64,000 nucleotides of DNA from positions 12,608 to 76,607 of the forward strand of contig JAZQVN010000039.1 of NCBI GenBank assembly GCA_045631885.1, read 5' to 3'. The notes under the pieces were generated by a model that was not told the DNA's origin, made no database searches, and saw only the letters and a list, made by a program, of their open reading frames with translations. A program made the position numbers and the translations under genes. Below, in pieces: positions 31,563 through 46,663 of this stretch (the first letter of the stretch is position 1; every line of letters begins with the position of its first letter). The stretch comes from Bacilli bacterium. Lineage in GTDB: Bacteria > Bacillota_I > Bacilli_A > RFN20 > CAG-826.

Positions 31563-31563
31563 T

Positions 31564-32363: not shown

Positions 32364-32385
32364 GGACTTTTAAAGTCCTTTTTTT
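32364..32385 (+). terminator. Rho-independent terminator after the response regulator.
   Basis: A ggacttt/aaagtcc hairpin is followed by TTTTTTT. Confidence 0.65.
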
Positions 32386-32725: not shown

Positions 32726-34318
32726 ATGAAGCACAAATTGATCAGAGGACTAATCGCATTATCCATGTTATTTGGTTCTTTTGTTGTTGCCGCTTGTAGC
32801 CGTTCCAAGACCATCTCCGGTATTCATATGAGTAACGAGGAAAGAGTGGATGTTCCTTTTGGTAATTTCTCATATGAAGGCGTCAAAGTGACTGTTGATT
32901 ATGTCGGTGGTGATCATACCGAAATCAATCTAGAAGAAAATATGATTCCCGAAATAGAAAGATTGAAGTTCTACAAGATTGGTGAGCAAGATGTCAAAGT
33001 CACTTTCCGTGATAAATTCAACACCATCATGAAGATTAATGTCGCCCTTAATAAATTTAACGATATCTATGCACTTAATGGTTATGAATGCGTTTATGAT
33101 GGTTTACCACATCAAGTAGCGTTAAATCATGAACTACCAGAAGGTGCGACTATTACTTATCCAAGAGGAAATACATTTACTAACGCTGGCACATACCAAA
33201 TCATCGGCGTTATTGAAAAATATGGTTATGAATCTAAAACATTACAAGCGACATTAAATATTCTTCCTGCACAAAGAGATGCAAGTGGTATTGTTTTCCA
33301 AGATAAAACAGTTACATATGATGGAGAACAACAAACAATTGAAGCTACTGGTGTCCCAGAAGGTATCGAAGTCACATATGACGCGTATAATTACACAACG
33401 GGCACGAGAATTAATAGAGTAGTTAGCGCGGGCACATATAAGATTGTTGCCCACTTTAACGATGCGAATTCCAATTATGAAAAGATTCCTGATAAAGAAG
33501 CGATTTTGACAATTGAAAAAGCTACATATGATTTATCAACAATTAAAGTCCCAGATCACGTCAAAGAATACGATGGTGAAGATTATACACCTGTATTAAT
33601 GAATAAAGATAAATTACCTAGAGGTGTCTCGGTAACATTTAAAATCTTAAATAAAGATGGCATCGAAGTAATTACTAACGCGAATGTTGGTGTTTATACA
33701 ATTGTCGCCCATTTTGATGATTACGATAAAAATAACTATAACGAAATCGAAGATATGACAGGAACCCTTACGGTTACTAAAAGAGTAATCAAAGTGGAAA
33801 ATGTCGTCGTATTTAATAGTGCATCGTTTACATTTGATGAAGACGCTCATAGTATTGAAGTCACAAATCTTCCAGCGGGCGTCACAGTAGAATATGAAAA
33901 TAATGGACAAGTATACGCTGGCGAATATGCAGTTAAAGCGAAATTCTCCGCTATTAATGATTATGAAACAGTAGATGTTAGTGAAATATCTGCTTATCTC
34001 ATCATCACTAGAACAGAAGATAGAAGAACAGTCAAAGTTTATAACGACGCAACTCAAGAATACGACAAGGATTTTTCTTCAGAAAACATCTCGATTGTTG
34101 ATGGTAAAGCTGTTGTTAGCGGTTTTGATGATAGTGTCTTTGTCGTCGATGTGATTAATTTCTCAAATCTTGAAGATGGCACATTAGTCAAGGTAGAAAA
34201 CTTTGTAGACGGAACAACATACGCCTACACAGTGACCTTTAGTTATATAGATGAAAGAATGAATTATAGTGTAATTTTAGCGGCTTGTACCGGTGAATTT
34301 ACTTATCACGCAGCATAG
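32726..34318 (+). CDS. Surface lipoprotein with tandem repeated beta-sandwich (MBG/YDG-like) domains.
   Basis: The lipobox is VVAAC-SRS. A GAGGAG RBS precedes the start. Repeated ~80-aa units occur (TYDGEQQTIEATGVPEGIEVTYD...YKIVAHFND; TYDLSTIKVPDHVKEYDGEDY...YTIVAHFDD; FTFDEDAHSIEVTNLPAGVTVEY...YAVKAKFS). Confidence 0.65.
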   Translation: MKHKLIRGLIALSMLFGSFVVAACSRSKTISGIHMSNEERVDVPFGNFSYEGVKVTVDYVGGDHTEINLEENMIPEIERLKFYKIGEQDVKVTFRDKFNTIMKINVALNKFNDIYALNGYECVYDGLPHQVALNHELPEGATITYPRGNTFTNAGTYQIIGVIEKYGYESKTLQATLNILPAQRDASGIVFQDKTVTYDGEQQTIEATGVPEGIEVTYDAYNYTTGTRINRVVSAGTYKIVAHFNDANSNYEKIPDKEAILTIEKATYDLSTIKVPDHVKEYDGEDYTPVLMNKDKLPRGVSVTFKILNKDGIEVITNANVGVYTIVAHFDDYDKNNYNEIEDMTGTLTVTKRVIKVENVVVFNSASFTFDEDAHSIEVTNLPAGVTVEYENNGQVYAGEYAVKAKFSAINDYETVDVSEISAYLIITRTEDRRTVKVYNDATQEYDKDFSSENISIVDGKAVVSGFDDSVFVVDVINFSNLEDGTLVKVENFVDGTTYAYTVTFSYIDERMNYSVILAACTGEFTYHAA

Positions 34319-34331
34319 GGGGGCGAAGACA

Positions 34332-36698
34332 ATGAAGAAAATAGTGGTATTTTACATCGTAATCGCTATCTCGCTCGCTGTGAGTGCTGCCTTTACTATC
34401 GCTCTAGGAGTCAATGGTTTATTTAACGACCTTGAAGGAAATTTCCAAATTGTTACGTTAATTAGTTTTGCTCTTTTCCATTTTGTTACGACATTTTTAT
34501 TCTGTTCAGTCGTGGCATCTCATAAGTTTGCAAGTGGCAAGCCACAAGAAGTTTTATTCGTTATTTCTGCAATTTTATTAATTAGTGAAATTATCAGTTA
34601 TCTTATCTTTTCCTTAATTGATTGTGGTTTTGAGTTCGTCTCTTTAGACTGGATCGGAACATTTGTGAATATGGGTCATTCTTGGGTTTATTACTTAACA
34701 TTAGGCATAGTTTTCTTGGCCTTATTCTCGTTATATATTTTCGTGTTAAATAAAAATTTCATCGCGGTTTTGTCGACAAAAGATTCAAAATTGAAACAAG
34801 TTAAAGACGCGAATTTAGAAAATTCTCGTTGGATGAACGACAAAGAAAAGAAGTCGTTATTTAAATATCATCGTTTCAGTGAATTAGGCGAAGTCACAAA
34901 AGACGGCGTTCCTGTTGTGGCGACATTAGATAAAAACGGAAAAGATATGGAAGTCGCGTTCAATTCACCATGTCACTCCATCATCATTGGTTCCACTGGT
35001 TCTGGTAAAACCACAACATTTGTTTCCCCAATGATTCAGTTATTAGCCTCCACAAAAGCGGGCTCATCAATGGTTATCACCGATCCAAAAGGTGAACTAT
35101 TTATGCTCCATTCTCAATTATTAAAAGATAAAGGATACGATGTTAAAGTCATCGACTTACGTGATACATATTCTTCTTATCGTTGGAATCCATTAGATAG
35201 CATTTGGGATAACTTTGAAGAATATAAAAACGCCCACACAAAGGCTTATAAGAGAACAGGTGATATTTTAGCTAGTGGGTTAAAGTTAGATGAAGAAGTT
35301 TACGATGCTTCTGAAGTCAGTACTTGGTATGAATTTGACGGTAAAGCCTATGTTCAATATCAAAAATTAATTAACGCGATTAAGATTTATAAAAAGAAAA
35401 TATATGACGAAGTCTATGAAGACTTAAATGACTTAGTCACCGTTTTAATTCCAGTTGAAAATGAAAAAGATCCTCTTTGGGAAAAAGGGGCTCGTTCGAT
35501 CACTTTAGCGGTTCTTCTTGCTATGTTAGAAGACTCCTTAGATGACAACAACAATATGACCAAAGAGAAATTCAATTTCTTTAACTTAACCAAAATCTTA
35601 CAAAACTCCACGAAAGATTATGAAGATTTAAGAAATTATTTTAAAGGTAGAGATGTTTTATCTAGAGCTGCTTCTTTATCTAAACAAGTCTGTGACGCCG
35701 CTCAATCAACACGTGCATCATATATGTCTATCGTTTATGACAAGTTGATGTTATTTAACGATGCTGGTGTTTGTGCTTTAACAAGCGAATCTGAATTCTC
35801 CGCTGATGCTTTAGCGGAACACCCAACTGCCTTATTCTTAAAGATTCCTGATGAAAAAGATACCAGACATAACCTTGCCGCTATCTTTATCCTTAATATT
35901 TATAAGACATTAATTAAAGTCGCATCCGCGAGAGAAGAATTATCTCTTCCACGAAACGTCTATTTCATCATGGATGAATTCGGCAATATGCCAAAGATTT
36001 CTAAATTCGATAAGTTCATTACCGTCGGTCGTAGTAGAAAGATTTGGTTCACCATGATTATTCAATCATACGCTCAACTTAATAATGTTTATGGCGATAA
36101 TGTCGCTGATATTATCAAAGGTAACTGTGGTATCAAGATGTTTATCGGTTCTAACGATATGCAAACATGTAAAGAATATAGTGAATTATGCGGTAACATT
36201 ACCGTTGCAACTACATCAACATCCGCATCCGCGCATAGCGATGTTAATTATTCCACATCTTATCAAGTAAGACCATTAATTTATCCTTCTGAATTACAAA
36301 GATTAAATCACCCAGGAGATATTGGTCATAGTATCATCGTTACCTTTGGTAACTATCCATTAAAAACGTATTTTACTCCATCTTTCAAAGTGCCTTTATA
36401 CAAGACTGGTGAGATGGATTCTAGTGAACTTCAAGACCGCTTATTTAACGAAGCTGAGATTTTCTATAACATCAGAATTAGAAATAATCGCGTTTTAGAA
36501 AAGAAGAATGATGCACCTGTTAAAGAAGCTCCGAAAAAAGGTGGTAAGAAAGTCAATAAAGCAAGTGATTTAACTGAAGCTGAAATCCTTGAGCTTTTCA
36601 CCGAATATCAAGCAGAACATCCAGATATCACAATTAAAGAGTTCCGCGAGATGCTAAAAAACGGTGAAATTGACCTCGGAAAAGGAGGCGATAAATAG
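34332..36698 (+). CDS. Type IV coupling protein (VirD4/TraG/TcpA-like ATPase) with an N-terminal TM anchor.
   Basis: There are 3-4 N-terminal TM helices. Walker A is IIIGSTGSGKTTT and Walker B is YFIMDEFGNM. ATG at 34332 is the likely start; the track ORF begins earlier, in an overlap with the upstream gene. Confidence 0.75.
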   Translation: MKKIVVFYIVIAISLAVSAAFTIALGVNGLFNDLEGNFQIVTLISFALFHFVTTFLFCSVVASHKFASGKPQEVLFVISAILLISEIISYLIFSLIDCGFEFVSLDWIGTFVNMGHSWVYYLTLGIVFLALFSLYIFVLNKNFIAVLSTKDSKLKQVKDANLENSRWMNDKEKKSLFKYHRFSELGEVTKDGVPVVATLDKNGKDMEVAFNSPCHSIIIGSTGSGKTTTFVSPMIQLLASTKAGSSMVITDPKGELFMLHSQLLKDKGYDVKVIDLRDTYSSYRWNPLDSIWDNFEEYKNAHTKAYKRTGDILASGLKLDEEVYDASEVSTWYEFDGKAYVQYQKLINAIKIYKKKIYDEVYEDLNDLVTVLIPVENEKDPLWEKGARSITLAVLLAMLEDSLDDNNNMTKEKFNFFNLTKILQNSTKDYEDLRNYFKGRDVLSRAASLSKQVCDAAQSTRASYMSIVYDKLMLFNDAGVCALTSESEFSADALAEHPTALFLKIPDEKDTRHNLAAIFILNIYKTLIKVASAREELSLPRNVYFIMDEFGNMPKISKFDKFITVGRSRKIWFTMIIQSYAQLNNVYGDNVADIIKGNCGIKMFIGSNDMQTCKEYSELCGNITVATTSTSASAHSDVNYSTSYQVRPLIYPSELQRLNHPGDIGHSIIVTFGNYPLKTYFTPSFKVPLYKTGEMDSSELQDRLFNEAEIFYNIRIRNNRVLEKKNDAPVKEAPKKGGKKVNKASDLTEAEILELFTEYQAEHPDITIKEFREMLKNGEIDLGKGGDK

Positions 36699-36700
36699 AT

Positions 36701-39700
36701 ATGAAGAAACGTTTCTGGACTTATTTGAAATGCATTTTAGCAGGAATATTATTTATCCCTGGCCTTTTAATGATGATTAAAGACATACCTGTTATCGCTA
36801 CAAGAGCGGATGGTGTTAGTGTCTATTTTGAAAAAACTAGATATGAAGCGGATAACGCTAACTTAGTCTATGCAAAATTAATCGCTGAAGGTGATCAAGG
36901 TGATGAAGTAACAGTTTCATATAAAACTAGTAGTGGAACTGGTATTGAAAATATCGATTACGCTGGTGCTTCTAACACGATTACATTAAAAATTCCTGCA
37001 AGTAGAAAAGCGGAATACACCGTTTCAATTAAATGTTTAAACGATGCAAATAATAGAGAGAAATTAAGAATTTATGAAGTCAACTCTTTATATGGTCGTT
37101 ATTTCAATTTAAAAATCACAAGCGTCTCCGCGGGAGCCTCTATTGGAACTAATTCAAGTTGTAAATGTTATTTACCATATAACTATAAAGTTGAAGGTAT
37201 GTCTAGCACCAATTCCACGACAGGTAGAATAACCGCTTATCTTAAAGATGAATATAAAATGCAATCTCTTTTTAACAGCGGTATCGATGACTTAGACGGT
37301 AAATCAACATGGAAAACTTGGAAAAAAGGTATGTCTTTCAACAATGAAACATCTCAACGTTGGATTAATGCTTTTATTAACCAAAACATCGCCGATGCTT
37401 ATGCATCTTTCCTCGTCAAAAGCATTGATGACAGTACATGGCAATCTAGCACAGACATCCATGTTCTCGCTGGTAATAAACAATTCACTGAGAATTATGA
37501 AAGATCAAAAGATTGCCCTGGCTTATATTTATATTTCACTGTTGACCCAGATAAAAAAGGTGGATATCGCTGCGACTATAACGCGATGAAATATATTTCT
37601 AATGATAAAAACCCAACCAAAGAAGAAGATAGATTAGTTAACGTCAGCAACCGTTATAAAATCGGAGAACATAAAAATATATGTTGGATTACAGATAAAG
37701 ATACATGGTACGCGTCTAATAACTCGGTTGTCGAAAGTGCTTTCTACAAAATCAAACCATATAATGGAATTTTAGATCAAGGTATCGCTTTCTATAACGG
37801 TAACAAAGAGTATGATAGAGAAATCGATGACGTTTGGATGTTCTTATATCTTTACGATAGTACCGCACCAAAAATCGTCAATAAATACGCTGAATTTGAT
37901 GATGAAACTCAACAAATGCGTTTCTATGTTCGTTTTAACGAACCAGTTTATTCCGCTAAAACAGGCTCTGCAAAAATCAAAATCAACGATTTGGTCACTG
38001 ATTACTGGGCTACATATACTGAAGGTAATTTTTCTGACACATTAGTTTATTCACTTCCATTAGATACATTCGCTGCAAGAATTGATAAAGTCGGTATTCA
38101 ATTACCAACAGATCAAGATATTGGTGATATGGCATATCACCTTAGTAGTGATCGTAGGGTTAGTTGCAATTACTATTCTAAAACTACATCAGATCCAGAC
38201 TTTGATCCTTTGAGCATTACTTCCGGTTATGTTGATTTAAGCCGTCCAAATTTAGCAGCTGATATTTCTGATTCTGGTGGTAAACCAAGAAATCTTTATA
38301 ACATCGTCTTATCCGCGAATAATGGAACAACTTTTACCGAAGGTGTAGTCCATTACACATGGAGTAAACAAGAAGACATCGGTGATGAAAATGATGTACA
38401 GTTATATAACCATCACCACACTTTAAGAGATGAAGAAATGGGTTCATTTACTGTCACCCTTGCTAAAGACGCGAGTGAAGGAATTGATGGTGGTGATTAT
38501 TATCTCCACGCTTTAGCGGTATCTAATCACGGCTTTTCTCGACCCGCTCGATTTGGTCCATATCGATTAGATGGAGACGCTCCTGTTATTGAAAAACTCA
38601 CTCCAGAAGTGTCCGAACCAAATGGTTTAAAAACTAAAACATATAAAATAAAAGTTAATAATAAAGAATTAGGAACTGATATGAAGAACATTTCATTACA
38701 GTTCAAATATTCCGATCCTTTAGGTGCGAAGAAAACTGCGACTTTAGATCTCATGAAAGACGGGGTTAGAAGGGCGGGTGTGGACGCTGATGAAAGCGAT
38801 CCAACCGCAGTCGTTTATAAATATATTTCTAATATTGATAGTACTCCTGCGGTAGTAGATCTTTATGGTCTAGACACAGAATTCATTCCTGGATTAATGG
38901 ATGGCCGTTCTAGAATGAGTGCAGAAGTAACGTATATCGTCGAAGATGAAGCGGGCAACAAAGCTTCAACTGAACCGACATATCTCGTTTATGATATTAG
39001 AGAATTATTTGAAGTCGATGTCGATACGCCAGATAATTATGACCCAGTCGTCGATGCACGTTTTTCTGATGTTGAAGATGATGTTTATAACATCACATCT
39101 CCATCCGATACAAAAGGTTTAACATTTACAGTTACAGAAGATGATATCAAAGATTCAATTGCGGATGGTGCGAAATTGTCAGTTGTTCTTAATGATAAAA
39201 CAGTCATCGAAGCACCAGATCTTGCTTACTCTGTGACTTTAGCGGGGTTAGAACCAGGTCATTATGATGCAGTCTGCCGAGTCAGTGGACACACTTCTGG
39301 TGGAGATGTCGATATGGTTTCTAAAACCTATAGCTTCTATCTCACAGATAATTTCACCGACTCAACAGTTAATAAAGAAAACACCGAAGGCAACTTAGTT
39401 TTAACTAACCACGTTTTTACCCTTTCTAGCTCGAAATATTATTATTACAACGCGAGCAAAACCATGGTTAGTAACCATTTATATGGTGCGACACTCAATC
39501 CTTCCACTGATAGATATGATGGCGGTTCTGCCAATCCGACATTCTCCAGTAGTGTTGAAGCGAAGAAATATGTCAGATTCATGGAATATCAAGACCTCTA
39601 TCTATTAAGAGTTACCGAAACAATCGCTAGCTTCTTAAATGGTGGTAGTGGTTCCACGATTTATGTGAAAGCAAACGGTGAAACAAAAACCGCTCAAGAG

Positions 39701-42700
39701 GGCCAATTATGGGTCAGATATAAGAGAAATACTTGGACCACAACTTCAGAAGCGAGTGGCTGGGCTTTCTATTATTACAGTAATGGCAACCTTGAAGATG
39801 GTATTAATATCAATGCCTTATCTCCAAATTTAAATAGCGCGATGGATGCGGTTGTTAACCGTATTGTTAGCGCGGGTGAAGATACATATTTAGTAAGAGA
39901 AGAAGATCTCAATTCTAAAACAGGCGCCCCACATCTTAACGAAGCACAAATGCACGTTTATGAAGAAACTGCAAGTGTCAGTAAATCAGGAACTAATTAT
40001 GTGACCAATCCTACTTATGCAGGCGATCCAAAATTATATGTCAACAATGTTGAAGTTGATGACGTTGAATATCCACTCGCCACAAATATGCCAATCACAT
40101 TTGATCCATCATCAGTCGTTTATTATCAATATGCCGAAGGTGATTGGAATAGATTGAGATTTGAAGACGGACAGACATTTAGAAACGTTTTAACTTCTCC
40201 TGGCATCTATCACATTCGTGAATTTGGTGAAGGTGGCGTTTCTGATTATTCATTCTATCTAGATCCAAAATTACCATTAATTAACGCGACCATGAATAAA
40301 GGTATCGCTGGTTCTGAACAAGATATCGTCATCAACCAAAATGTCGATGACAACACTGATAGAAATATTACTTGTAAAAACATCGTCTTTAATTCGATGG
40401 AAGATATCGACCCATATGCTTATGTCGCTATCTATTCATATCCAAATAATGTTTTACAAAAAGTTTTATATAAAGAAGATATCGCTAATTACATGATTTC
40501 CGATGGCAATTATTATGTGCAAATCGGTGATAGATCAGGTAATGTCATTACTTACGTTGTACAAACTTCAAGTTCCGATCTCACTTTATCAGTGGAAGAA
40601 AACGAATCAAAAACCGCTGTATTTGTAAATACAAATAGAGATGAATCAGAAATCTATTCGTTTGAAGTTTATTTAAACGAAGTATTGATTGATAACGAAT
40701 ATGCGAGTAGAAAAGTCTATCGTGAATCTGGCTGCTACCGCGTTGAAGTAACTGATATTTACGGTAATAGCGTTTACGAAACACTCGTTCACTCTTCTCC
40801 ATCTCCAGATATCACTTGGTATTATCTCAATGATAATGGTGGTTATTCTATTTACGATGAAAATAAACCAGTGAAGATGATCTTAAAAGATGATCCTTCT
40901 GGTGCGAGAACGACAAACGTTTATACATCCACTCATGTCAGATTGTTATTTACAAATAATAGTTATAACGATAGCCCAGTTAGATTTGAATTAACTGGTA
41001 TTGATTCAAGTGAGTATTACTATAACGAAACAACAGGTTTACTCTCAATCAACTCCTTGTCTAGCTGGTCATTAAGAGTGTGGTTTGAAGACGCTCCAGA
41101 TAACGATCATTATTACGTCTGTCAAATCGATAACACCCCACCAGATATCTCCACTTCATTTGTTGGTACAGCATTCTATCAATATTACGAAATGGATGGA
41201 GATAAAGTCATCGAAACTTCATCATTTGACGTGATGGATTTCAGCAAATATCAAGTCGGTGATGTTTTGACAGTCGACACGTTAAGATATGTGACAAATA
41301 ACTCCACAACATTAACTTTTGATAACGGTAGTGTTATCTGTGGTAGTCATATCGTTATCACAATTAGCGACCCATCAGGAGTTTCATCAAATTATTCAGT
41401 GATGAAAAACGGTCAACAAATTCAAGTGGCGATGGATAAGAATCAATTATTATTAATGGATTATGGTTCATATGTCATTACTGTTTCTGATGCTTTAGGT
41501 AATACCACTGTATTTACATTTATCAATGTCAAAGATAGCACTTCAATCGGAACGATTGATGGAAATATCATCGAAGAAGATACATTGATTTATGGTCATG
41601 ATGATTTAACTATTACCTCTTTATATAGTGGTGCGGAAACTATCTTAGTCAAAGCCGAAAATCAAACCTATACTTATGAATTTAATTTCGATGGCACAAC
41701 TCTCACATATGGCCAATACTTCTATAGACAAGATAAATATGAGGATGAAGAAAGCGTCATCCACAATATCGATTATGCAGCTTATCAAGTAGCGACTGGC
41801 TTTGCTTTAAATATCAATGAAGTAAAAAGAGATAATTGGTATCCAGTTATTACCCATTCTAAATTCATCATTTATGCGATGATTAATGAAAATGGTTTAG
41901 CTTGTTACCGCGTTACTCCAACCGGAGATGACCCAGTTTATACCGAAACATATCTCTATGTTGGTAATAACAAAGTCCCTTCTAGATTTATCGCTGAATT
42001 ATCAAAAGATTCTCCAGATATCACTTTAGTATCAGGAGAAAAAGAAGTCATTCAAACTCCTGGATTGAATTACATTTATATCGCTGATGATTTAACCATT
42101 AAAGCGGCTTCAATCGATTCTTCAATTACCAAAATTGAATACGCATATAATCAAAAATCCGCGGACTTCGATGATTTCAAAGTCATTTATGATGGTGAAT
42201 TATCCGAATTTAAAGGTACAGAAAACGGTTTCTATCAAATCGTTGTCACCAATAAATACAACAACAAAACGACTTATACACTTTATAAGATTACCGCGTA
42301 TGGTTCTGTTGTGAATTGCTATTTCTTAGATGGAAATCAAGTGACATTCTATCAAAACGAAGGAACAATTCGCGCGAATCAATCCATTGAATTAATGGTT
42401 TATAGCGAAAATGTCACCTTCATCGTTAATGGCGACACTACGACAGGTGTTGTTGAAGACGGTATGACTTTCTTAGAAATCACTAGAGAAGGTACATATC
42501 ACGTTGAAGTTATCGGTGCGAATGGCATCCGTGAAGATTTCAACTTTGAAATCAAACAAGATGAATCCTTCTTATATGATGAAGAATGGATTACAGGTTA
42601 TAACACCGAAGCTTTACTCGCTGATCAATCATATACAAACACTTTGTGTTCCGTTGAATTAGATGACGATGTAGTCTTTATCGATATGCTCGTTAACGAT

Positions 42701-44173
42701 GAAATCTATGTGAAGCTATATGATGATGTCACAGAAGATAAATTAAACGACCCAGAATTATTAAAAGAAATTATCGGTAGCTATGGCGTTGGTAAATACG
42801 AAATCAGCTTTAGAAATCAATATGGTGATTTAGTGAAGAAGACAGTTCATTTCAACGATGTTCCTTCTCTCACATTACAAAGAATCACGACAACAAACTC
42901 CGGAACAGTTGAAGATTACGATTTAGAGTTTGCCATTGAAAAAGATTTCTATTCTAACTACATCATGATTTTCTCCACGGATAGCACTCATTACATCTTC
43001 AAAATTAATGGTGATGAATATCGTTTAGATGAACCAAAACAAATTGGTTTTACCAATATCAGCGGAACTGGTTCATTGCCTCCATATGAAATTGAATATC
43101 TCGATGAATATGGTAATCACATTTATTTCACTGCAATTCTCTATAGAGAAGAAGTCGAAATTGATACCACAGCGATGAACACAATTCTCGTCGGAGACAC
43201 ACTATACACAAAAGATGATGTGAAGATCACCTTTGGTGAAGGCTTAAAAGCCACATATAGTGTCGATGGTGGACAAGAAAAAGAATACTTCTCAGGCGAT
43301 ACATATTACGCGGATGGAACTTATACTTTCACCGTGAGAGACATCGCGGGAAATAGAACTTTCTACACAGTCGTTCATAAGAGCGTTAACCATTACACAA
43401 TTAATAACACTTCCACAGGTGAAGAAGTCATGATGGGTGGAGTGGTTAATGATGGCAGTGTTTCATTTCACCCAACCGATGGTTCTAGTATCATCCTCGC
43501 TTTCAGAAACGGTGAATTACTTGGCGAAATCAACAGTAATACATTCTCCGTAACTGGCCATTACGAAATCTTAATTGAAGACGTCATTGGCAATAGATCT
43601 TATGAAGAATTCTACATTATCAATAACGAATTATGTAAATTCGATTACTCCGCACCTTATGGATATACAGTGACTGAAGTGTGGCGTATCAAACCAGATG
43701 GCGCAAGAGAGCTCACAAATATCAAAGGTGATTCCATCTCATTATCTGAAGATGGCAATTACGTTGTTGTTGTTACCGGAAAAGAAACAACAACAACATA
43801 CAATTTCACAATTGGAATTAGTAACGTCAAGCCAACAGCGACCTTAGTCGGAGTTGAAGATAATGGCGTCACCGCGAAAGACGTCACATTCACCGGCTTA
43901 AGATCTGGCGATGTCGTGAAAATCTATAGAGATGGTGTCTTAATTAGCACAACCACCATCACATTATCATCTGACTATCCAACAATTGATGTCGGTGGTA
44001 AATATCGTGTAGTTATTACAAACGTCCAAGGTGTGGAAGTTGAGTATAACTTCACAAGAAAAGTCGTAACTAATACCGCAGGTAGCGTGTTTATCATGAT
44101 TGCTTGTGGTTTAGCGATAACTGGTATTGGTATTGGTCTTTTATACCATACTAAGTTAAAAACTGATGATTAA
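36701..44173 (+). CDS. Giant (2490-aa) surface protein with an N-terminal signal/TM and a C-terminal TM anchor; many beta-rich repeat modules.
   Basis: The N-terminus is MKKRFWTYLKCILAGILFIPGLLMMI. The C-terminus is FIMIACGLAITGIGIGLLYH-TKLKTDD. The protein is Thr/Ser/Tyr/Asn-rich with repetitive beta-strand-like modules. No catalytic motif was recognised. Confidence 0.6.
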   Translation: MKKRFWTYLKCILAGILFIPGLLMMIKDIPVIATRADGVSVYFEKTRYEADNANLVYAKLIAEGDQGDEVTVSYKTSSGTGIENIDYAGASNTITLKIPASRKAEYTVSIKCLNDANNREKLRIYEVNSLYGRYFNLKITSVSAGASIGTNSSCKCYLPYNYKVEGMSSTNSTTGRITAYLKDEYKMQSLFNSGIDDLDGKSTWKTWKKGMSFNNETSQRWINAFINQNIADAYASFLVKSIDDSTWQSSTDIHVLAGNKQFTENYERSKDCPGLYLYFTVDPDKKGGYRCDYNAMKYISNDKNPTKEEDRLVNVSNRYKIGEHKNICWITDKDTWYASNNSVVESAFYKIKPYNGILDQGIAFYNGNKEYDREIDDVWMFLYLYDSTAPKIVNKYAEFDDETQQMRFYVRFNEPVYSAKTGSAKIKINDLVTDYWATYTEGNFSDTLVYSLPLDTFAARIDKVGIQLPTDQDIGDMAYHLSSDRRVSCNYYSKTTSDPDFDPLSITSGYVDLSRPNLAADISDSGGKPRNLYNIVLSANNGTTFTEGVVHYTWSKQEDIGDENDVQLYNHHHTLRDEEMGSFTVTLAKDASEGIDGGDYYLHALAVSNHGFSRPARFGPYRLDGDAPVIEKLTPEVSEPNGLKTKTYKIKVNNKELGTDMKNISLQFKYSDPLGAKKTATLDLMKDGVRRAGVDADESDPTAVVYKYISNIDSTPAVVDLYGLDTEFIPGLMDGRSRMSAEVTYIVEDEAGNKASTEPTYLVYDIRELFEVDVDTPDNYDPVVDARFSDVEDDVYNITSPSDTKGLTFTVTEDDIKDSIADGAKLSVVLNDKTVIEAPDLAYSVTLAGLEPGHYDAVCRVSGHTSGGDVDMVSKTYSFYLTDNFTDSTVNKENTEGNLVLTNHVFTLSSSKYYYYNASKTMVSNHLYGATLNPSTDRYDGGSANPTFSSSVEAKKYVRFMEYQDLYLLRVTETIASFLNGGSGSTIYVKANGETKTAQEGQLWVRYKRNTWTTTSEASGWAFYYYSNGNLEDGININALSPNLNSAMDAVVNRIVSAGEDTYLVREEDLNSKTGAPHLNEAQMHVYEETASVSKSGTNYVTNPTYAGDPKLYVNNVEVDDVEYPLATNMPITFDPSSVVYYQYAEGDWNRLRFEDGQTFRNVLTSPGIYHIREFGEGGVSDYSFYLDPKLPLINATMNKGIAGSEQDIVINQNVDDNTDRNITCKNIVFNSMEDIDPYAYVAIYSYPNNVLQKVLYKEDIANYMISDGNYYVQIGDRSGNVITYVVQTSSSDLTLSVEENESKTAVFVNTNRDESEIYSFEVYLNEVLIDNEYASRKVYRESGCYRVEVTDIYGNSVYETLVHSSPSPDITWYYLNDNGGYSIYDENKPVKMILKDDPSGARTTNVYTSTHVRLLFTNNSYNDSPVRFELTGIDSSEYYYNETTGLLSINSLSSWSLRVWFEDAPDNDHYYVCQIDNTPPDISTSFVGTAFYQYYEMDGDKVIETSSFDVMDFSKYQVGDVLTVDTLRYVTNNSTTLTFDNGSVICGSHIVITISDPSGVSSNYSVMKNGQQIQVAMDKNQLLLMDYGSYVITVSDALGNTTVFTFINVKDSTSIGTIDGNIIEEDTLIYGHDDLTITSLYSGAETILVKAENQTYTYEFNFDGTTLTYGQYFYRQDKYEDEESVIHNIDYAAYQVATGFALNINEVKRDNWYPVITHSKFIIYAMINENGLACYRVTPTGDDPVYTETYLYVGNNKVPSRFIAELSKDSPDITLVSGEKEVIQTPGLNYIYIADDLTIKAASIDSSITKIEYAYNQKSADFDDFKVIYDGELSEFKGTENGFYQIVVTNKYNNKTTYTLYKITAYGSVVNCYFLDGNQVTFYQNEGTIRANQSIELMVYSENVTFIVNGDTTTGVVEDGMTFLEITREGTYHVEVIGANGIREDFNFEIKQDESFLYDEEWITGYNTEALLADQSYTNTLCSVELDDDVVFIDMLVNDEIYVKLYDDVTEDKLNDPELLKEIIGSYGVGKYEISFRNQYGDLVKKTVHFNDVPSLTLQRITTTNSGTVEDYDLEFAIEKDFYSNYIMIFSTDSTHYIFKINGDEYRLDEPKQIGFTNISGTGSLPPYEIEYLDEYGNHIYFTAILYREEVEIDTTAMNTILVGDTLYTKDDVKITFGEGLKATYSVDGGQEKEYFSGDTYYADGTYTFTVRDIAGNRTFYTVVHKSVNHYTINNTSTGEEVMMGGVVNDGSVSFHPTDGSSIILAFRNGELLGEINSNTFSVTGHYEILIEDVIGNRSYEEFYIINNELCKFDYSAPYGYTVTEVWRIKPDGARELTNIKGDSISLSEDGNYVVVVTGKETTTTYNFTIGISNVKPTATLVGVEDNGVTAKDVTFTGLRSGDVVKIYRDGVLISTTTITLSSDYPTIDVGGKYRVVITNVQGVEVEYNFTRKVVTNTAGSVFIMIACGLAITGIGIGLLYHTKLKTDD

Positions 44174-44214: not shown

Positions 44215-44523
44215 ATGCAAAACATTATCTTAGCAATGTCTGAAAAGGATCTTAACGATATCGTTAAACCTCTTCTTGAAGTATTGAAGGTTTTAGTTCC
44301 AGTACTTCTCACACTCGTCGGAGCTTTAGGCGCCGTATGGGTTATTTTCCTTGGCATTAAATACGCCAAAGCGGAAGAACCACAAGAACACGAAAAGGCA
44401 AGAAACGCTTTAAAGAATGCGATTATTGGCTTCGTCCTTATCTTCGTTCTTTTAGTCGCTTTACAAGCCGGTGTTACCATCTTCTCAAGCTGGTATAAGA
44501 ACTACGATTTCCCAGTGGCATAG
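44215..44523 (+). CDS. Small two-TM membrane protein (pilin/VirB2/TrbC-like candidate).
   Basis: It has an AGGAGG RBS and is 102 aa long. It has two hydrophobic helices separated by a charged loop, a size and topology typical of T4SS pilin-like subunits. Confidence 0.45.
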   Translation: MQNIILAMSEKDLNDIVKPLLEVLKVLVPVLLTLVGALGAVWVIFLGIKYAKAEEPQEHEKARNALKNAIIGFVLIFVLLVALQAGVTIFSSWYKNYDFPVA

Positions 44524-44542: not shown

Positions 44543-45232
44543 ATGGCGGGTAAACATCATCTTTTCAAGTTACCTTTACTTCTCTTTTCCATGTCGCTTA
44601 CCGCGTGTGGAATGGATTTAGGAACGTTTTCTGAATCGGATGATCTAAGTGTTTACTACGATGCCTTTGGCGATTTAGAGGGATTATATGATGGTGGTGA
44701 TGAGTCTTATGATTTTGAAGATTCATTATTCAATGAATACACATTAGAAAAGTTCGAATGGGAAGATAGCGGTGACGCTGTCGAAAGTCAAGAATACCTC
44801 TATTTAATCATTCCGTTTAAAGAAGATTTGACTATTGAAACCTTAGCGTTCTTCATCTATACAGACGTCAATGTGGCCATTGAACTAAATTTCTTCTATT
44901 ACGCCCCAGATGCATCTCGCCCTTCAAAAATCAGATACTTAACTTCTCCAACCGAGGAGTATAACGATGATACTGAACAATATGAGCCAATCGAATACGA
45001 TGACCCAGATGTTTCTACATCAATATGTACGATTAAAGGAAATATCGTCAAAGAAGAATGGAATAGTTTTGCTTGCGAAGGATTTAATCAACCTGATTAT
45101 GATGATGGCTGTCTACACGCACAAGATGATGGATATCTCTATATCAGAATGGAGAATAATTCCGGTTTTAATACCGAAACAATGACACATTTCTCATTTA
45201 AGTTTATTAATTTTATAATCCGCGCAATCTAG
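44543..45232 (+). CDS. Acidic lipoprotein, hypothetical (T4SS-cluster associated).
   Basis: The lipobox is MSLTAC-GMD. The protein is very D/E/Y-rich. Confidence 0.5.
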   Translation: MAGKHHLFKLPLLLFSMSLTACGMDLGTFSESDDLSVYYDAFGDLEGLYDGGDESYDFEDSLFNEYTLEKFEWEDSGDAVESQEYLYLIIPFKEDLTIETLAFFIYTDVNVAIELNFFYYAPDASRPSKIRYLTSPTEEYNDDTEQYEPIEYDDPDVSTSICTIKGNIVKEEWNSFACEGFNQPDYDDGCLHAQDDGYLYIRMENNSGFNTETMTHFSFKFINFIIRAI

Positions 45233-45244: not shown

Positions 45245-46663
45245 ATGTCGAGTTTATTTAGTTGGGTTTGGGACCTATTATATGGAATCAGCAAATCAAT
45301 GTACGCGATTATTGATAATCTTTTGAAGTGCGCGAATATGTTATGTGGCATTGTGCCAATCACTTACGAAGGAGCGGATACGGATTTCTTATCTTTCCTA
45401 TTAAGGAATAAGAATATCGCTTTCGCCTTTGCGGGTTCAGTTCTCATTTCTATCGTTTTAGTCTTACTATTTTCGGTCATCATGATTATGAGAACTATCG
45501 CAAGCGAGAAAGTGGAAAAAACTCCAACGCAAATCGCTGTGCAAGTCGCAAAAACTCTTCTCACATTCTTATTTATCCCCGCTGCGATGGTCGTCTTAAT
45601 TTCATTCACTAACGCACTAATGCAAATTCTCTATCAAGCCACATCGGCTAATTCACCAGATGGTATTGGTAGATTCTTAGCTGGTGCCTTTGGTCAAAAC
45701 GCTTTAAAGAGTGGCGTTGATCCAGACTTCTATCTCGATGAGAATTTTAAATACTGGAGCACATCAAATGTCAAAGGCTATTTAGATTTATCTGATTACG
45801 ATTATTTCTTCAGCTGGTTAGCTAGCATTGTCATCTTAATCGCTATCGGTATCACATTACTCATGTTCGTTGACCGTGCGTTTGCAATCGTTATTCTCTT
45901 TATCTTTGCTCCTATTTCATTATCAACATCTATCGTTGATGATGGGGCAAGGTTCAAATTATGGAGAGAGCAATTCCTAGTTAAATTCTTAACAGGATAT
46001 GGCTGTATTATCGGTATTAACATCTATGCTTTAGTTGTCGCTGCAGTAACCGCAGATGGATTAGTCTTCTTCCCAGATAGCGTTATTTTAAATAACTTAA
46101 TGAAGATTTTAATCATCGGTGGTGGTGGCGTATCACTACAAAAATTAATGGCCTTAGTTGGTAACTTAATCGCTCAAGGAGCGGGTAGTAATGAAATGAG
46201 AGATAGCGCGATGGCGGCAGGAACCTTTTCTCGAGCTGCGATGGGCGCTGCGATGATGCCATTTAAAGCTGCAAAAGGCTTATTCAGTGCGACAAGAAGT
46301 GCGATTAACTTCGGTAATGACGTCTCTCACCATGGTGCAGGTACCGCAATCGGTCGTCGACTCGGTTTTAAAACTGAAAGAGATTACGCGATTGAAGAAG
46401 GTAGATTTAAACGCGGTGGCGGAGCAGGCGCAGGAAACCATATGGCTGGTGTCGCTAACAGTATGTTAGGTGCTGGTAATAAAAACGCTGCTAACGCAAT
46501 TAATAACAATAATGGCGGAAATAATGGCGGCGGTAATAACAATAATGGCGGCGGCGGTAATAACAATAAAGGTGGAAGTGGTAATAACCATCCAAATCCA
46601 GGCAGTAATATGATTAGTAACGCTGTCAATAGTGCTTTAAATAAGGGAGGAGATAAGAAATGA
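45245..46663 (+). CDS. Polytopic membrane protein, VirB6/TrbL-like candidate, with a C-terminal Gly/Asn-rich low-complexity tail.
   Basis: It has an AGGAGA RBS and about 6-7 TM helices. The tail is NNNNGGNNGGGNNNNGGGGNNNKGGSGNN. Confidence 0.5.
   Translation: MSSLFSWVWDLLYGISKSMYAIIDNLLKCANMLCGIVPITYEGADTDFLSFLLRNKNIAFAFAGSVLISIVLVLLFSVIMIMRTIASEKVEKTPTQIAVQVAKTLLTFLFIPAAMVVLISFTNALMQILYQATSANSPDGIGRFLAGAFGQNALKSGVDPDFYLDENFKYWSTSNVKGYLDLSDYDYFFSWLASIVILIAIGITLLMFVDRAFAIVILFIFAPISLSTSIVDDGARFKLWREQFLVKFLTGYGCIIGINIYALVVAAVTADGLVFFPDSVILNNLMKILIIGGGGVSLQKLMALVGNLIAQGAGSNEMRDSAMAAGTFSRAAMGAAMMPFKAAKGLFSATRSAINFGNDVSHHGAGTAIGRRLGFKTERDYAIEEGRFKRGGGAGAGNHMAGVANSMLGAGNKNAANAINNNNGGNNGGGNNNNGGGGNNNKGGSGNNHPNPGSNMISNAVNSALNKGGDKK
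46486..46600 (+). repeat. Simple-sequence tandem repeat (aataacaataatggcggcgg-like units) encoding the N/G tail.
   Basis: The units aataacaataatggcggaaataatggcggcggtaataacaataatggcggcggcggtaataacaataaaggtgg are seen directly. The length is potentially variable by slippage. Confidence 0.55.

What the first reader, a model, noticed from the sequence alone, without database searches (positions are those of the whole stretch)
36701..44173. A 2490-aa membrane-anchored surface giant inside the T4SS-like operon.
The protein has an N-terminal signal or TM helix and a C-terminal TM helix with a basic stop-transfer. Between them lie about 2400 aa of Thr/Ser/Tyr/Asn-rich beta-type repeat modules with no catalytic motif. 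It sits between the coupling protein and the pilin-like gene. This is reminiscent of the adhesin or aggregation substances of Gram-positive conjugation, or of CDS14-type surface lipoproteins of mycoplasma ICEs. It could mediate mating-pair or target-cell contact. A two-ended membrane anchor is unusual.
Basis: partly seen in the sequence, partly recalled or inferred. Interest (0 to 1): 0.55.

Follow-up and report, generated by a model that had tools for sequence, protein, structure and literature searches.

The report
Giant surface arm of minimal T4SS
This real 2490-residue gene encodes a long, membrane-anchored surface fibre that always travels with a stripped-down, mycoplasma-type type IV secretion machine in uncultured gut and rumen bacteria, and is most likely the arm that machine uses to grip another cell.

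Summary
The ORF 36701..44173 (+) is real and intact. I recovered 170 complete homologues, median length 2509 aa. None is in a cultured organism, a PLSDB plasmid or an IMG/VR contig.

It is gene 3 of a tight 8-gene operon: lipoprotein with MBG domain, VirD4, giant, VirB2-like pilin, small lipoprotein, VirB6-like membrane protein, VirB4, soluble 511-aa protein. The synteny is essentially absolute, whether loci were seeded on the giant (25/25 and 23/23) or on VirB4 (22/23).

The "two-ended anchor" is not supported. The N-terminus is a cleavable signal peptide, with a near-invariant Ala at -1. The mature protein therefore has one C-terminal TM helix and an 8-residue cytoplasmic tail.

Anatomy:
- an N-terminal Calx-beta domain;
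- a lectin-like jelly-roll;
- Ig-like modules;
- a family-private alpha/beta domain with no structural relative;
- a stalk of constant length (1365 ± 40 aa);
- a highly conserved GxxxG TM helix and YHTKLKTD tail.

Best reading: it is the contact or adhesion arm of this T4SS. Its closest positional and topological analogue is the Spiroplasma ScARP/SkARP1 adhesin, not mycoplasma CDS14, and there is no sequence homology to either. No relaxase or integrase lies nearby, so conjugation itself is unproven. It is a new protein family in a known functional niche.

The parts
36681..36688 (+). Shine-Dalgarno AAAGGAGG for the giant gene
   Evidence: Read directly from the sequence. It lies 12 nt upstream of the ATG at 36701. 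The alternative start at codon 24 has no such sequence.
36701..44173 (+). Giant ORF, 2490 aa plus stop codon
   Evidence: Homologues are full length.
36701..36808 (+). Signal peptide, residues 1-36, predicted cleavage after A36
   Evidence: Hydrophobic segment at residues 5-34. Homologue N-termini look like signal peptides. A36 is at least 90 % conserved. Cleavage itself is inferred, not shown.
36809..37135 (+). Calx-beta domain at the N-terminal (distal) tip, residues 37 to about 145
   Evidence: Pfam Calx-beta 4.7e-5, below cut-off. It matches in 14 of 18 family members, best 1.1e-6. The family profile hits the NCX1 Ca-binding domain 3us9 at E 5.9e-5.
37136..37876 (+). Jelly-roll / ConA-like beta-sandwich, residues 146-392, candidate ligand-binding head
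   Evidence: AF2 model with pLDDT 86 and pTM 0.84. Foldseek gives weak hits (E 6e-4 to 4e-2, TM about 0.3) to GH32 C-terminal sandwiches, legume lectins/ConA, the lectin-bearing S. sanguinis PilC, and jelly-roll capsid proteins. No sequence hit in PDB.
37877..39397 (+). Residues 393-899: beta-rich modules not recognised by Pfam, and the most variable part (631-880 at 34 % pairwise identity, with indels)
   Evidence: Only faint Big_3_2, Big_13 and HYR matches.
39398..40045 (+). Domain D, residues about 900-1115: family-private alpha/beta domain and the best-conserved globular part (56 % pairwise identity)
   Evidence: AF2 model with pLDDT 81 and pTM 0.80. No Foldseek hit below E=1 in PDB, and none below 0.1 in BFVD. 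The profile search of 1.84e9 proteins gave 119 hits, all at E<=1e-10 and all within this family.
40046..44050 (+). Stalk, residues 1116-2450: roughly 15 divergent Ig-like beta modules (BiPBP_C-like; DxxGN strand motif), of constant length across the family
   Evidence: hhalign finds internal repeats. BiPBP_C matches at 1883-1948 and, on consensus segments, at about 1290-1360 and 1545-1610. The length from domain D to the C-terminus is 1365 aa median, sd 40, in 170 proteins.
44051..44170 (+). Juxtamembrane FTRKxIxN motif, TM helix 2460-2482 with S2462 and G2475xxxG2479, and cytoplasmic tail YHTKLKTDD
   Evidence: Column counts in 45 sequences: F2451, R2453, S2462 and L2480 in 45/45, G2479 in 44/45, G2475 in 43/45. 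This segment shows 61 % pairwise identity, the highest of any region.
32726..34318 (+). First gene of the operon: 530-aa surface lipoprotein with an MBG_3 domain (lipobox VAAC)
   Evidence: Pfam MBG_3 2.9e-10. Lipobox seen and conserved in 21 of 28 homologues. Present upstream of the giant in 23 of 25 loci.
34293..36698 (+). VirD4-type coupling protein, 801 aa, about 4 N-terminal TM segments
   Evidence: Present upstream of the giant in 25 of 25 loci.
44215..44523 (+). VirB2-like pilin (Mbov_0395 family), 102 aa, 2 TM segments
   Evidence: Present in 23 of 23 loci.
44543..45232 (+). 229-aa acidic lipoprotein (lipobox LTAC), no known family
   Evidence: Found in 28 loci by ORF clustering.
45245..46663 (+). 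Polytopic membrane protein (Mbov_0396 / MMCAP2_0566 family), VirB6-like
   Evidence: Present in 23 of 23 loci.
46660..49323 (+). VirB4 ATPase (NCBIfam VirB4_plasma, Mbov_0397 family) with an N-terminal TM region
   Evidence: Present in 23 of 23 loci.
49336..50871 (+). Last gene of the operon: soluble 511-aa protein of unknown family with an acidic C-terminal tail; a paralogue lies at 51791-53311
   Evidence: It follows VirB4 in most loci.
32364..32378 (+). Terminator-like hairpin plus T-run upstream of the operon
   Evidence: consensus scan only.
50890..50905 (+). Terminator-like hairpin plus T-run after the last operon gene
   Evidence: consensus scan only.
30300..32331 (+). LytS-type histidine kinase and response regulator immediately upstream, conserved next to the cassette in many loci
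   Evidence: Pfam. Response-regulator homologues in 14 loci and kinase homologues in 9.

Best explanation
The gene encodes a type I membrane protein.

Export and topology (inferred). A Sec signal peptide is removed after A36. About 2420 residues lie outside the cell, one C-terminal helix spans the membrane, and 8 residues (HTKLKTDD) stay in the cytoplasm.

Anatomy (shown by models and profiles). The ectodomain is a fibre with these parts:
- a distal head made of a Calx-beta domain and a lectin-like jelly-roll;
- a variable set of beta modules;
- a family-private alpha/beta domain (D);
- a stalk of about 15 Ig-like modules whose length is fixed across the family.

Linkage (shown). The protein is an obligatory, co-transcribed and co-inherited accessory of a minimal mollicute-type type IV secretion system comprising VirD4, a VirB2-like pilin, a VirB6-like protein and VirB4.

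Mechanism (inferred).
- The head binds a surface ligand, probably a glycan, on a partner or target cell.
- The stalk sets the working distance.
- The conserved GxxxG helix and cytoplasmic tail dock the fibre to the membrane components of the secretion machine, so that contact is made where the channel is.
- It therefore does the job that PrgB-type adhesins, TIE-pLS20, mycoplasma CDS14 or F-plasmid mating-pair stabilisation do elsewhere.

Unknown. What the machine then moves, DNA or protein, is not known.
For: Reality and conservation:
- About 83 full-length homologues at 39-51 % identity.
- 170 complete members with few indels.

Operon:
- Gaps or overlaps between the 8 genes range from -26 to +41 nt.
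- Terminator-like hairpins bracket the operon.

Obligate linkage:
- In giant-seeded loci, VirD4 is present in 25/25, and pilin, VirB6-like protein and VirB4 in 23/23.
- In independently VirB4-seeded metagenome loci, 22/23 carry the giant. 0/15 loci with distant VirB4 do.

Topology:
- Only two hydrophobic segments.
- Signal-peptide-like N-termini with a near-invariant A at -1.

Head:
- Calx-beta domain.
- Jelly-roll with lectin-like fold neighbours.

Fixed stalk, variable head:
- The part after domain D is 1365 ± 40 aa, while the part before it ranges from 63 to 3769 aa.
- The head shows 34-41 % pairwise identity, against 54-61 % for the membrane-proximal part.

Docking:
- TM and tail are the most conserved segment, with a GxxxG motif.
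- The YHTKLKTD motif is unique to this protein in the window.

Precedent:
- In Spiroplasma pSKU146 the adhesin SkARP1 has a signal peptide, a C-terminal TM helix and a short tail. It sits directly upstream of the same pilin / Mbov_0396 / VirB4 genes (PMC2386487).
- Adhesins inside conjugation operons are needed for mating in pLS20 (PMC8092201), R27 (PMC6764697) and mycoplasma ICEA (PMC6030558).
Against: - No binding activity or ligand has been shown. The lectin-like assignment rests on weak Foldseek hits (TM about 0.3).
- Adhesins usually vary in repeat number and evolve fast. This one has a rigidly conserved length and domain order, which fits a structural machine part at least as well.
- Domain D, the most conserved extracellular domain, has no assigned role in this model.
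- No relaxase, integrase, oriT or transposase was found within 32 kb upstream or 13 kb downstream. 'Mating' is therefore an assumption.
- Docking to the T4SS through the TM helix and tail is pure inference.
- Signal-peptide cleavage was not predicted with a dedicated tool.
- ScARPs, the closest positional analogue, are known for host-cell adhesion, not for conjugation.
Confidence: 0.55

Rival explanations
1. It is a structural part of the secretion apparatus rather than an adhesin. It would be an extracellular scaffold, ruler or sheath of fixed length. Several copies, packed through the GxxxG helices around the VirB6-like channel, would support or guide the short pilin fibre. This would replace the missing VirB7/9/10-type core and any wall-spanning parts.
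For: - Rigid conservation of length and domain order, with a stalk of 1365 ± 40 aa in 170 proteins.
- The membrane-proximal third, TM helix and tail are the most conserved regions.
- The private domain D is invariant in position.
- Co-occurrence with this VirB4 clade is absolute.
- The cassette has no VirB8, VirB9, VirB10 or hydrolase homologue.
Against: - The N-terminal part is free to vary from 63 to 3769 aa. A distal Calx-beta plus jelly-roll head looks like a binding module.
- Related mollicute and Spiroplasma T4SS work with the same pilin/VirB6/VirB4 core without any such giant. It is therefore not needed for the channel itself.
- The two readings are not exclusive.
Confidence: 0.22
2. 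It is a general host- or substrate-binding adhesin (gut mucosa, plant fibre, other microbes). It would merely be co-regulated or hitch-hiking with the T4SS genes, as Spiroplasma ScARPs serve insect-cell adhesion, and would have no role in secretion or transfer.
For: - ScARPs, encoded next to the same T4SS genes, mediate adhesion to and entry into insect cells (PMC2386487, PMC3485318).
- The operon also starts with an MBG-domain lipoprotein typical of host adhesins.
- All hosts are gut or rumen organisms.
Against: - The gene sits between VirD4 and the pilin, with a 2-nt gap upstream and a 41-nt gap downstream.
- This position is kept in every locus across hosts as distant as Bacilli and Christensenellales-like Clostridia.
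- Such stability is not expected for an unrelated passenger.
- The family never occurs outside this context in the loci examined.
Confidence: 0.15
3. It is an assembly or annotation artefact: a fusion of several genes, or a pseudogene.
For: - None was found.
- The only annotation problem is that the database start (M24) cuts off the signal peptide.
Against: - 170 complete homologues of matching length come from independent assemblies (ENA, JGI, NCBI, Logan).
- There is no internal stop.
- Conservation is uniform along the whole length.
Confidence: 0.01

Closest known systems
Spiroplasma ScARP / SkARP1 adhesins (DUF3688; S. citri pSci plasmids, S. kunkelii pSKU146)
   Same: - Both have a cleaved signal peptide, a large repeat-containing ectodomain, a single C-terminal TM helix and a short cytoplasmic tail (PMC2386487).
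- Both genes lie directly upstream of the Mbov_0395-type pilin, Mbov_0396-type membrane protein and Mbov_0397-type VirB4.
- Both come from a lineage that anchors surface proteins without a wall.
   Different: - ScARPs are 683-865 aa, against 2490 aa here.
- There is no sequence or profile similarity: BLASTP E>=0.2, hhalign probability 0.2 %.
- The giant has no sarpin repeats and no DUF3688 match.
- ScARPs are plasmid-borne and multi-copy, with demonstrated insect-cell adhesion. The giant is chromosomal and single-copy, with unknown ligand.
- VirD4 lies downstream in pSKU146 but upstream here.
Mycoplasma ICE CDS14 surface lipoprotein (ICEA of M. agalactiae)
   Same: - Both are surface proteins encoded with a mollicute-type T4SS.
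- CDS14 is essential for conjugation and thought to initiate donor-recipient contact (PMC6030558), which is the role proposed here.
   Different: - CDS14 is a lipoprotein, while the giant has no lipobox.
- CDS14 is much smaller.
- CDS14 lies after CDS19/cdsE, not between the coupling protein and the pilin (PMC6030558).
- ICEA carries a DDE recombinase and other ICE genes that are absent here.
- The cassette's own lipoproteins (32726-34318 and 44543-45232) are closer in anchor type.
Adhesins of Gram-positive conjugation operons: PrgB/aggregation substance (pCF10), TIE-pLS20, and the Ig-like RSP of IncHI R27
   Same: - Each is a large surface protein encoded inside the transfer operon, with an N-terminal adhesive domain followed by a stalk of beta domains.
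- Each promotes mating-pair formation (PMC8092201, PMC6764697). The PrgB comparison rests on my own knowledge.
   Different: - No homology was found to any Pfam adhesin, thioester, Cna or AgI/II domain.
- The giant has no LPXTG motif.
- It is anchored by a conserved TM helix and tail instead of wall linkage or secretion.
- It is two to three times larger.
- The stalk length is invariant.
- DNA transfer by this system is unproven.
Giant TM-anchored fibrillar surface proteins of Firmicutes (e.g. S. aureus Ebh; from my own knowledge)
   Same: Both have a signal peptide, a very long array of small domains and a C-terminal membrane anchor with a charged tail.
   Different: - Ebh-type proteins are built from many near-identical repeats, vary in length, and are not linked to a secretion machine.
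- This family has individually conserved, highly divergent modules and a private central domain.

Membership tests
Mollicute-type minimal T4SS (Mbov_0395/0396/0397 set) - applies to the operon | VirB4 of the VirB4_plasma / Mbov_0397 equivalog | tested here: met
   NCBIfam NF045975 scored 591.6 bits against a cut-off of 590, so it only just passes. The closest plasmid relatives are Spiroplasma plasmids at 25-28 % identity.
Mollicute-type minimal T4SS (Mbov_0395/0396/0397 set) - applies to the operon | Mbov_0395 pilin-like protein and Mbov_0396 polytopic membrane protein adjacent to VirB4 | tested here: met
   NF045849 scored 49 bits against a cut-off of 40. NF045889 scored 102 against 70, and NF045848 scored 135 against 90. 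The gene order pilin - (lipoprotein) - TM protein - VirB4 matches L044 and L045.
Integrative conjugative element (ICE) | Integrase or DDE recombinase, relaxase, and element boundaries (attachment repeats, tRNA) | tested here: not met
   No such Pfam domain occurs in any ORF of at least 100 aa in the 64-kb window. There is no tRNA. The flanks are housekeeping genes. No shared mobility gene appears in the 10-kb flanks of about 40 loci. A novel relaxase cannot be excluded.
Mycoplasma ICE CDS14-type surface lipoprotein | Lipoprotein signal peptide with lipobox cysteine | tested here: not met
   The N-terminus is MKKRFWTYLKCILAG..., where C11 is preceded by K. No conserved Cys occurs in homologue signal peptides.
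Mycoplasma ICE CDS14-type surface lipoprotein | Sequence similarity to CDS14 | tested here: inconclusive
   The giant has no NCBIfam hit of any kind.
Spiroplasma ScARP/SkARP (DUF3688) | Signal peptide, C-terminal TM helix, short cytoplasmic tail, and a gene next to the T4SS genes | tested here: met
   PMC2386487.
Spiroplasma ScARP/SkARP (DUF3688) | Sequence homology (DUF3688, sarpin repeats, conserved central region) | tested here: not met
   No DUF3688 match in Pfam at E<=1. BLASTP E>=0.2. hhalign probability 0.2 %.
Gram-positive aggregation substance / LPXTG conjugation adhesins (PrgB type) | LPXTG sorting signal before the C-terminal hydrophobic segment | tested here: not met
   The sequence before the TM helix is EYNFTRKVVTNTAGS. 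There is no LPXTG-like motif, and the FTRKxIxN motif is conserved instead.
Gram-positive aggregation substance / LPXTG conjugation adhesins (PrgB type) | Homologous adhesin domains (AgI/II-type, thioester, Cna-B) | tested here: not met
   None was found in the query or in 18 family members.
Fibrillar adhesin (architectural class) | Distal adhesive domain | tested here: inconclusive
   The Calx-beta domain is supported. The jelly-roll has only weak lectin-like fold neighbours. No binding data exist.
Fibrillar adhesin (architectural class) | Stalk of repeated beta-sandwich domains plus a cell-surface anchor | tested here: met
   Profile-level repeats and BiPBP_C-like Ig modules. C-terminal TM anchor. 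The modules are unusually divergent and fixed in number.

The most novel reading that the evidence does not exclude
The cassette may not be a conjugation system at all. It could be a chromosomally fixed, relaxase-less, contact-dependent protein-delivery machine of uncultured, small-genome gut and rumen Bacilli and Clostridia.

In this reading the giant is a fixed-length tether that holds a target cell, bacterial or host, at the right distance. The VirD4-dependent substrates would be the cassette-linked family of soluble proteins. These have variable N-terminal parts, share a ~190-aa C-terminal module and end in a Glu/Asp-rich tail (window 49336-50871 and 51791-53311).

That would be the first effector-translocating T4SS with a dedicated giant adhesin in the Firmicutes/mollicute lineage.
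Probability: 0.15. Interest if true: 0.8.

Novelty: new variant of a known kind. Interest (0 to 1): 0.5.

Why it matters
Contact formation is the least understood step of type IV secretion in bacteria without an outer membrane.

This is a large, previously undescribed protein family: 119 clusters at 50 % identity, with no Pfam or NCBIfam model and no solved relative for its central domain. It is linked to one T4SS clade as tightly as the ATPases are. That makes it a clean candidate for the contact device of a minimal T4SS.

The invariant stalk length and the conserved TM helix and tail give testable hypotheses about how an adhesin is coupled to the channel.

The hosts are abundant but uncultured gut and rumen lineages, including Ca. 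Enteromonas (which I believe belongs to the RFN20 lineage), Acholeplasmatales and Christensenellales-like MAGs. The system could shape gene flow or cell-cell interactions in those communities.

If the system turns out to deliver proteins rather than DNA, it would extend effector-type T4SS to this lineage.

Tried and rejected
1. Assembly or fusion artefact. Rejected.
2. Simple tandem-repeat protein. Rejected: there are no DNA tandem repeats and repeats appear only at profile level.
3. Homology to SkARP1. Rejected.
4. Known fold for domain D.
   - The PDB profile search found nothing.
   - Foldseek against PDB and BFVD found nothing.
5. Domain D in other protein families. The exhaustive profile search found it only in this family.
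6. Plasmid or phage carriage. The giant is absent from PLSDB and IMG/VR.
7. An ADP-ribosyltransferase hint in one post-VirB4 protein of L001 (E 0.0016). Only 1 of 13 family members shows it, so I treat it as chance.
8. Function of the 511-aa protein. No Pfam, NCBIfam or PDB hit and no named homologue.
9. Extra domains in the larger variants (3532 and 4164 aa). No Pfam domain.
10. Pfam assignment of the modules using family consensus segments. Only sub-threshold BiPBP_C, Big_3_2, Big_13 and HYR matches.
11. Searching the jelly-roll alignment (A3) with the search for homologous proteins. It returned nothing, not even the family itself, so it is uninformative.
12. Identifying the source genome through P0001. 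Not on record.
Full report

The window holds an ATG-initiated ORF at 36701..44173 on the + strand, encoding 2490 aa. The DNA is about 35 % G+C. In such AT-rich DNA stop codons are frequent, so an open frame of this size cannot arise by chance.

A strong Shine-Dalgarno sequence (AAAGGAGG, 36681-36688) precedes the ATG. The stop codon of the upstream gene lies at 36696-36698. A database entry for the same protein (P0001, 2467 aa) starts at codon 24, where there is no ribosome-binding site, and so cuts off the signal peptide.

Hydropathy shows exactly two hydrophobic segments, residues 5-34 and 2455-2484. The composition is T 9.1, D 8.3, V 7.9, S 7.9, Y 7.6, N 7.0 %, and the net charge is -157.

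The neighbours are as described:
- Upstream is a VirD4-type coupling protein (Pfam T4SS-DNA_transf 8.8e-55).
- Downstream is a 102-aa T4SS pilin (Pfam 2.1e-9; NCBIfam Mbov_0395 family, above cut-off).

**2. It is not an artefact: it belongs to a large family.**

A search of 5.8 billion proteins returned about 83 full-length homologues of 2450-2575 aa. They show 39-51 % identity over 98-100 % of the query, and a few more distant ones were also found.

A 45-sequence alignment shows 41 % mean column identity with very few gaps along the whole length.

An exhaustive HMMER profile search used the central domain against 1.84 billion cluster representatives. It gave 119 hits, all at E<=1e-10 and none weaker. 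Nearly all hits are proteins of 2350-2760 aa with the domain at the same relative position.

Pooling the recovered sequences gives 170 complete-looking members with a median length of 2509 aa.

The named sources are all metagenome-assembled genomes from gut and rumen. They include Candidatus Enteromonas, Acholeplasmatales, 'Erysipelotrichaceae' and Bacilli. They also include a more distant branch in Christensenellales-like Clostridia (Ca. Coproplasma, Ca. Scatosoma).

The family is absent from PLSDB plasmids and from IMG/VR.

**3. Context: one operon, one cassette.**

Eight + strand genes run from 32726 to 50871. Intergenic distances range from -26 to +41 nt. Terminator-like hairpins at 32364 and 50890 bracket them (consensus scan only).

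| # | Coordinates | Product | Evidence |
|---|---|---|---|
| i | 32726-34318 | 530-aa protein with MBG_3 domain and lipobox (VAAC) | |
| ii | 34293-36698 | VirD4 | |
| iii | 36701-44173 | the giant | |
| iv | 44215-44523 | pilin | |
| v | 44543-45232 | 229-aa acidic protein with lipobox (LTAC) | |
| vi | 45245-46663 | polytopic Mbov_0396/MMCAP2_0566-family protein (VirB6-like) | |
| vii | 46660-49323 | VirB4; passes the NCBIfam VirB4_plasma cut-off (591.6 against 590 bits) | |
| viii | 49336-50871 | soluble 511-aa protein of unknown family | |

A LytS-type histidine kinase and a response regulator lie just upstream. They recur next to the cassette in many loci.

Synteny was tested from two independent starting points.
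- **Seeded on the giant** (43 loci): VirD4 is upstream in 25/25 loci with enough sequence, and the MBG lipoprotein in 23/25. Pilin, VirB6-like protein and VirB4 are downstream in 23/23.
- **Seeded on VirB4** (metagenome contigs): 22 of 23 loci with VirB4 at >=49 % identity and enough upstream sequence carry the giant, including every locus with VirB4 at >=60 % identity. The single exception, at 49 %, is a differently organised T4SS. None of 15 loci with distant VirB4 (<45 %) has the giant.

The ATPases are 58-81 % identical between loci, whereas the giant is 24-49 % identical. This is expected for an exposed protein that co-evolves with a conserved motor.

**4. Is the cassette a mobile element?**

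Nothing in the 64-kb window says so. There is no integrase, transposase, relaxase or replication protein, and no tRNA.

The flanks are ordinary metabolism: an arginine deiminase and an ornithine carbamoyltransferase, an amylase, phosphoglucomutase, NagB, an NRPS and a GH3 enzyme.

No mobility gene is shared among the 10-kb flanks of about 40 loci.

The distribution across two bacterial classes is patchy, which suggests past transfer. A present-day self-transmissible ICE is not supported. DNA conjugation is therefore an assumption, not a result.

**5. Anatomy of the protein.**

*Signal peptide.* All homologues begin with a K/R-rich stretch, a hydrophobic core, and a small residue before the mature end. 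A36 is conserved in at least 90 % of sequences. The first folded domain starts within a few residues of it. I infer cleavage by signal peptidase I. The mature protein would then have one anchor, not two.

*Residues 37 to about 145: Calx-beta domain.*
- Pfam is sub-threshold in the query.
- It recurs in 14/18 members.
- The family profile hits the Ca-binding domain of NCX1 in PDB at E 5.9e-5.

*Residues 146-392: domain B.* AlphaFold2 with a 21-sequence alignment gives a confident, mainly beta model (pLDDT 86, pTM 0.84). Foldseek neighbours are weak but coherent (E 6e-4 to 4e-2, TM about 0.3). They are GH32 C-terminal sandwiches, legume lectins and concanavalin A, the lectin-bearing PilC of S. 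sanguinis, BC2L-C, and jelly-roll capsid proteins. I read this as a ConA-like jelly-roll, lectin-like in shape only.

*Residues 393-899.* These are beta-rich modules that Pfam does not recognise. This is the most variable region: 631-880 shows 34 % pairwise identity, with indels.

*Residues about 900-1115: domain D.* This is the best-conserved globular part, at 56 % pairwise identity. AlphaFold2 gives an alpha/beta fold (pLDDT 81, pTM 0.80). It has no Foldseek neighbour below E=1 in PDB or below 0.1 among viral models, and no PDB sequence relative. It occurs in no protein outside this family.

*Residues 1116-2450: stalk.*
- Profile-profile comparison of 100-residue alignment windows detects a recurring ~70-80-aa module at 1290-1366, 1540-1616, 1888-1955, 2157-2235, 2237-2317 and 2398-2452, with probabilities of 85-97 %.
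- The same module gives sub-threshold BiPBP_C (Ig-like) matches in 13/18 members and on consensus segments.
- A DxxGN strand motif recurs seven times.
- There are no DNA tandem repeats.

*Residues 2451-2490.*
- An external FTRKxIxN motif: F2451 and R2453 are present in 45/45 sequences.
- A TM helix with S2462 (45/45), G2475xxxG2479 (43/45 and 44/45) and L2480 (45/45).
- A cytoplasmic tail Y-H-T-K-L-K-T-D.

This segment is the most conserved of all, at 61 % pairwise identity. Two other surface proteins in the window also end in a TM helix plus a basic tail. C-terminal TM anchoring is therefore routine in this organism, but the YHTKLKTD motif is unique to the giant.

**6. A telling regularity.**

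In the 170 complete family members, the distance from the end of domain D to the C-terminus is 1365 aa at the median. The standard deviation is 40, and the 5-95 % range is 1333-1430.

The part before D, by contrast, ranges from 63 to 3769 aa, with a standard deviation of 306. Variants of 3084-5403 aa are expanded mainly at the N-terminus.

So the family keeps a constant membrane-proximal stalk plus domain D, and lets the distal end change. If each ~88-aa module spans about 4 nm, the stalk would reach roughly 55-60 nm. This is inference, not measurement.

**7. Mechanism.**

*What is shown:*
- The protein is real.
- It has a predicted export signal and a single C-terminal TM helix.
- It is co-transcribed with a minimal mollicute-type T4SS and obligatorily linked to it.
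- It has a modular fibre architecture with a variable distal head and an invariant proximal part.

*What is inferred:*
- The head binds a ligand on another cell.
- The stalk sets the distance.
- The GxxxG helix and tail dock the fibre to the membrane parts of the machine.

I give this reading 0.55.

The main rival, at 0.22, is that it is a structural scaffold or ruler of the apparatus. That would explain the rigid length conservation and domain D better. However, related Spiroplasma and Mycoplasma systems use the same pilin/VirB6/VirB4 core without any giant. The two readings can also coexist.

A T4SS-independent host adhesin gets 0.15. It is hard to reconcile with a position between VirD4 and the pilin that never changes.

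**8. Comparison with known systems.**

*Spiroplasma ScARP/SkARP1.* This is the closest positional and topological analogue. In pSKU146 the 865-aa DUF3688 protein lies directly upstream of the Mbov_0395 pilin, Mbov_0396 protein and Mbov_0397 VirB4. It has a signal peptide, a C-terminal TM helix at 800-828 and a cytoplasmic tail. ScARPs are described as cleaved, C-terminally anchored surface proteins with repeats (PMC2386487). There is no homology: BLASTP E>=0.2 and hhalign probability 0.2 %.

*Mycoplasma CDS14.* It is a lipoprotein essential for ICEA transfer, and neighbouring cells can complement it (PMC6030558). The giant is not a lipoprotein and sits elsewhere in the gene order. The two lipoproteins of the cassette, whose lipoboxes are conserved in 21/28 and 23/28 homologues, are closer in anchor type.

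*Gram-positive and IncHI conjugation adhesins.* TIE-pLS20 (PMC8092201), RSP of R27 (PMC6764697) and PrgB (my own knowledge) share the logic of 'adhesin inside the transfer operon'. They share no domain, no anchor type and no size class with the giant.

**9. Novelty and verdict.**

The functional niche, a T4SS-associated contact protein, is known. The protein family is new and broad, and it has several unusual features:
- a private central fold;
- an invariant stalk length;
- a conserved TM helix and tail;
- strict linkage to a chromosomal, apparently relaxase-less mollicute-type T4SS in uncultured gut lineages.

I classify it as a new variant of a known kind and score interest at 0.5.

The most novel reading not excluded is that the cassette delivers proteins rather than DNA. 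The cassette-linked soluble proteins would be the substrates. They share a C-terminal ~190-aa module, and 22 of 22 end in an acidic tail. I put this at about 0.15.

Noticed in passing
window 49336-50871 and 51791-53311; L001, L003, L011, L012, L014-L017, L025 flanks: A family of soluble ~500-aa proteins (17 ORFs in 13 loci, two in the window) usually follows VirB4. Nine further proteins of 356-895 aa in the same loci share only its C-terminal ~190-aa module. All 22 end in an acidic low-complexity tail, with 9-15 D/E among the last 40 residues. There is no Pfam, NCBIfam or PDB match. The pattern resembles secretion substrates with a common recognition domain.
   Followed up: partly
window 32726-34318 and 44543-45232: Two lipoproteins belong to the cassette. 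One is an MBG_3-domain protein whose length varies from 466 to 1845 aa between loci. The other is a small acidic protein with a conserved C-x-DLG-x-F motif after the lipobox. Lipoboxes are conserved in 21/28 and 23/28 homologues.
   Followed up: partly
window 36701-36769: The database version of this protein (P0001, 2467 aa) starts at codon 24 and lacks the signal peptide. The SD sequence and the homologues support the longer form.
   Followed up: yes
window 30300-32331 (+) and 56817-58703 (-): There are two paralogous LytS-type histidine kinase and response regulator pairs. The upstream pair is conserved next to the cassette in many loci and may control it. The regulator of the second pair carries an N-terminal HTH_3 domain.
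   Followed up: no
L045 (M. hyopneumoniae NZ_LR214993.1, 58453-68100): A module of DprA, Mbov_0395 pilin, Mbov_0396, VirB4 and Mbov_0399, without VirD4, is embedded among housekeeping genes (eno, serS, rpsT, aspS). It is a chromosomally fixed T4SS core next to a DNA-uptake gene. The record is labelled a plasmid, but at 268 kb and full of housekeeping genes it looks chromosomal.
   Followed up: no
window 60373-61794 and 61816-63399: Two further surface proteins carry Listeria-Bacteroides repeats and Chlamydia PMP repeats. Both end in a TM helix plus a basic tail rather than LPXTG, and a PrsW protease gene lies upstream. This suggests sortase-independent anchoring is the rule in this organism.
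   Followed up: partly
window 15498-25103: A PPTase gene is followed by a 2409-aa NRPS with a C-terminal reductase domain. Next come a MatE-HATPase fusion and a SpoIIE-HATPase protein, together forming a small secondary-metabolite locus just upstream of the T4SS region.
   Followed up: no
window 55845-56741; L001 25399-26364: Fic-domain proteins lie a few kb downstream of the cassette, both in the window and in a distant relative. This may be coincidence or a link to the system.
   Followed up: no
L036, L042: Cassette-bearing contigs are assigned to 'Elusimicrobiaceae bacterium' and 'Parabacteroides distasonis' bins from one study. This is most likely mis-binning, but horizontal transfer is not excluded.
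   Followed up: no
P0095, P0105, P0106, P0107 (family members of 3532-5403 aa): Some lineages carry N-terminal expansions of 1000-2900 aa ahead of domain D, while the stalk length stays constant. The two that were scanned (P0105 and P0107) have no Pfam domain in the extra part.
   Followed up: partly
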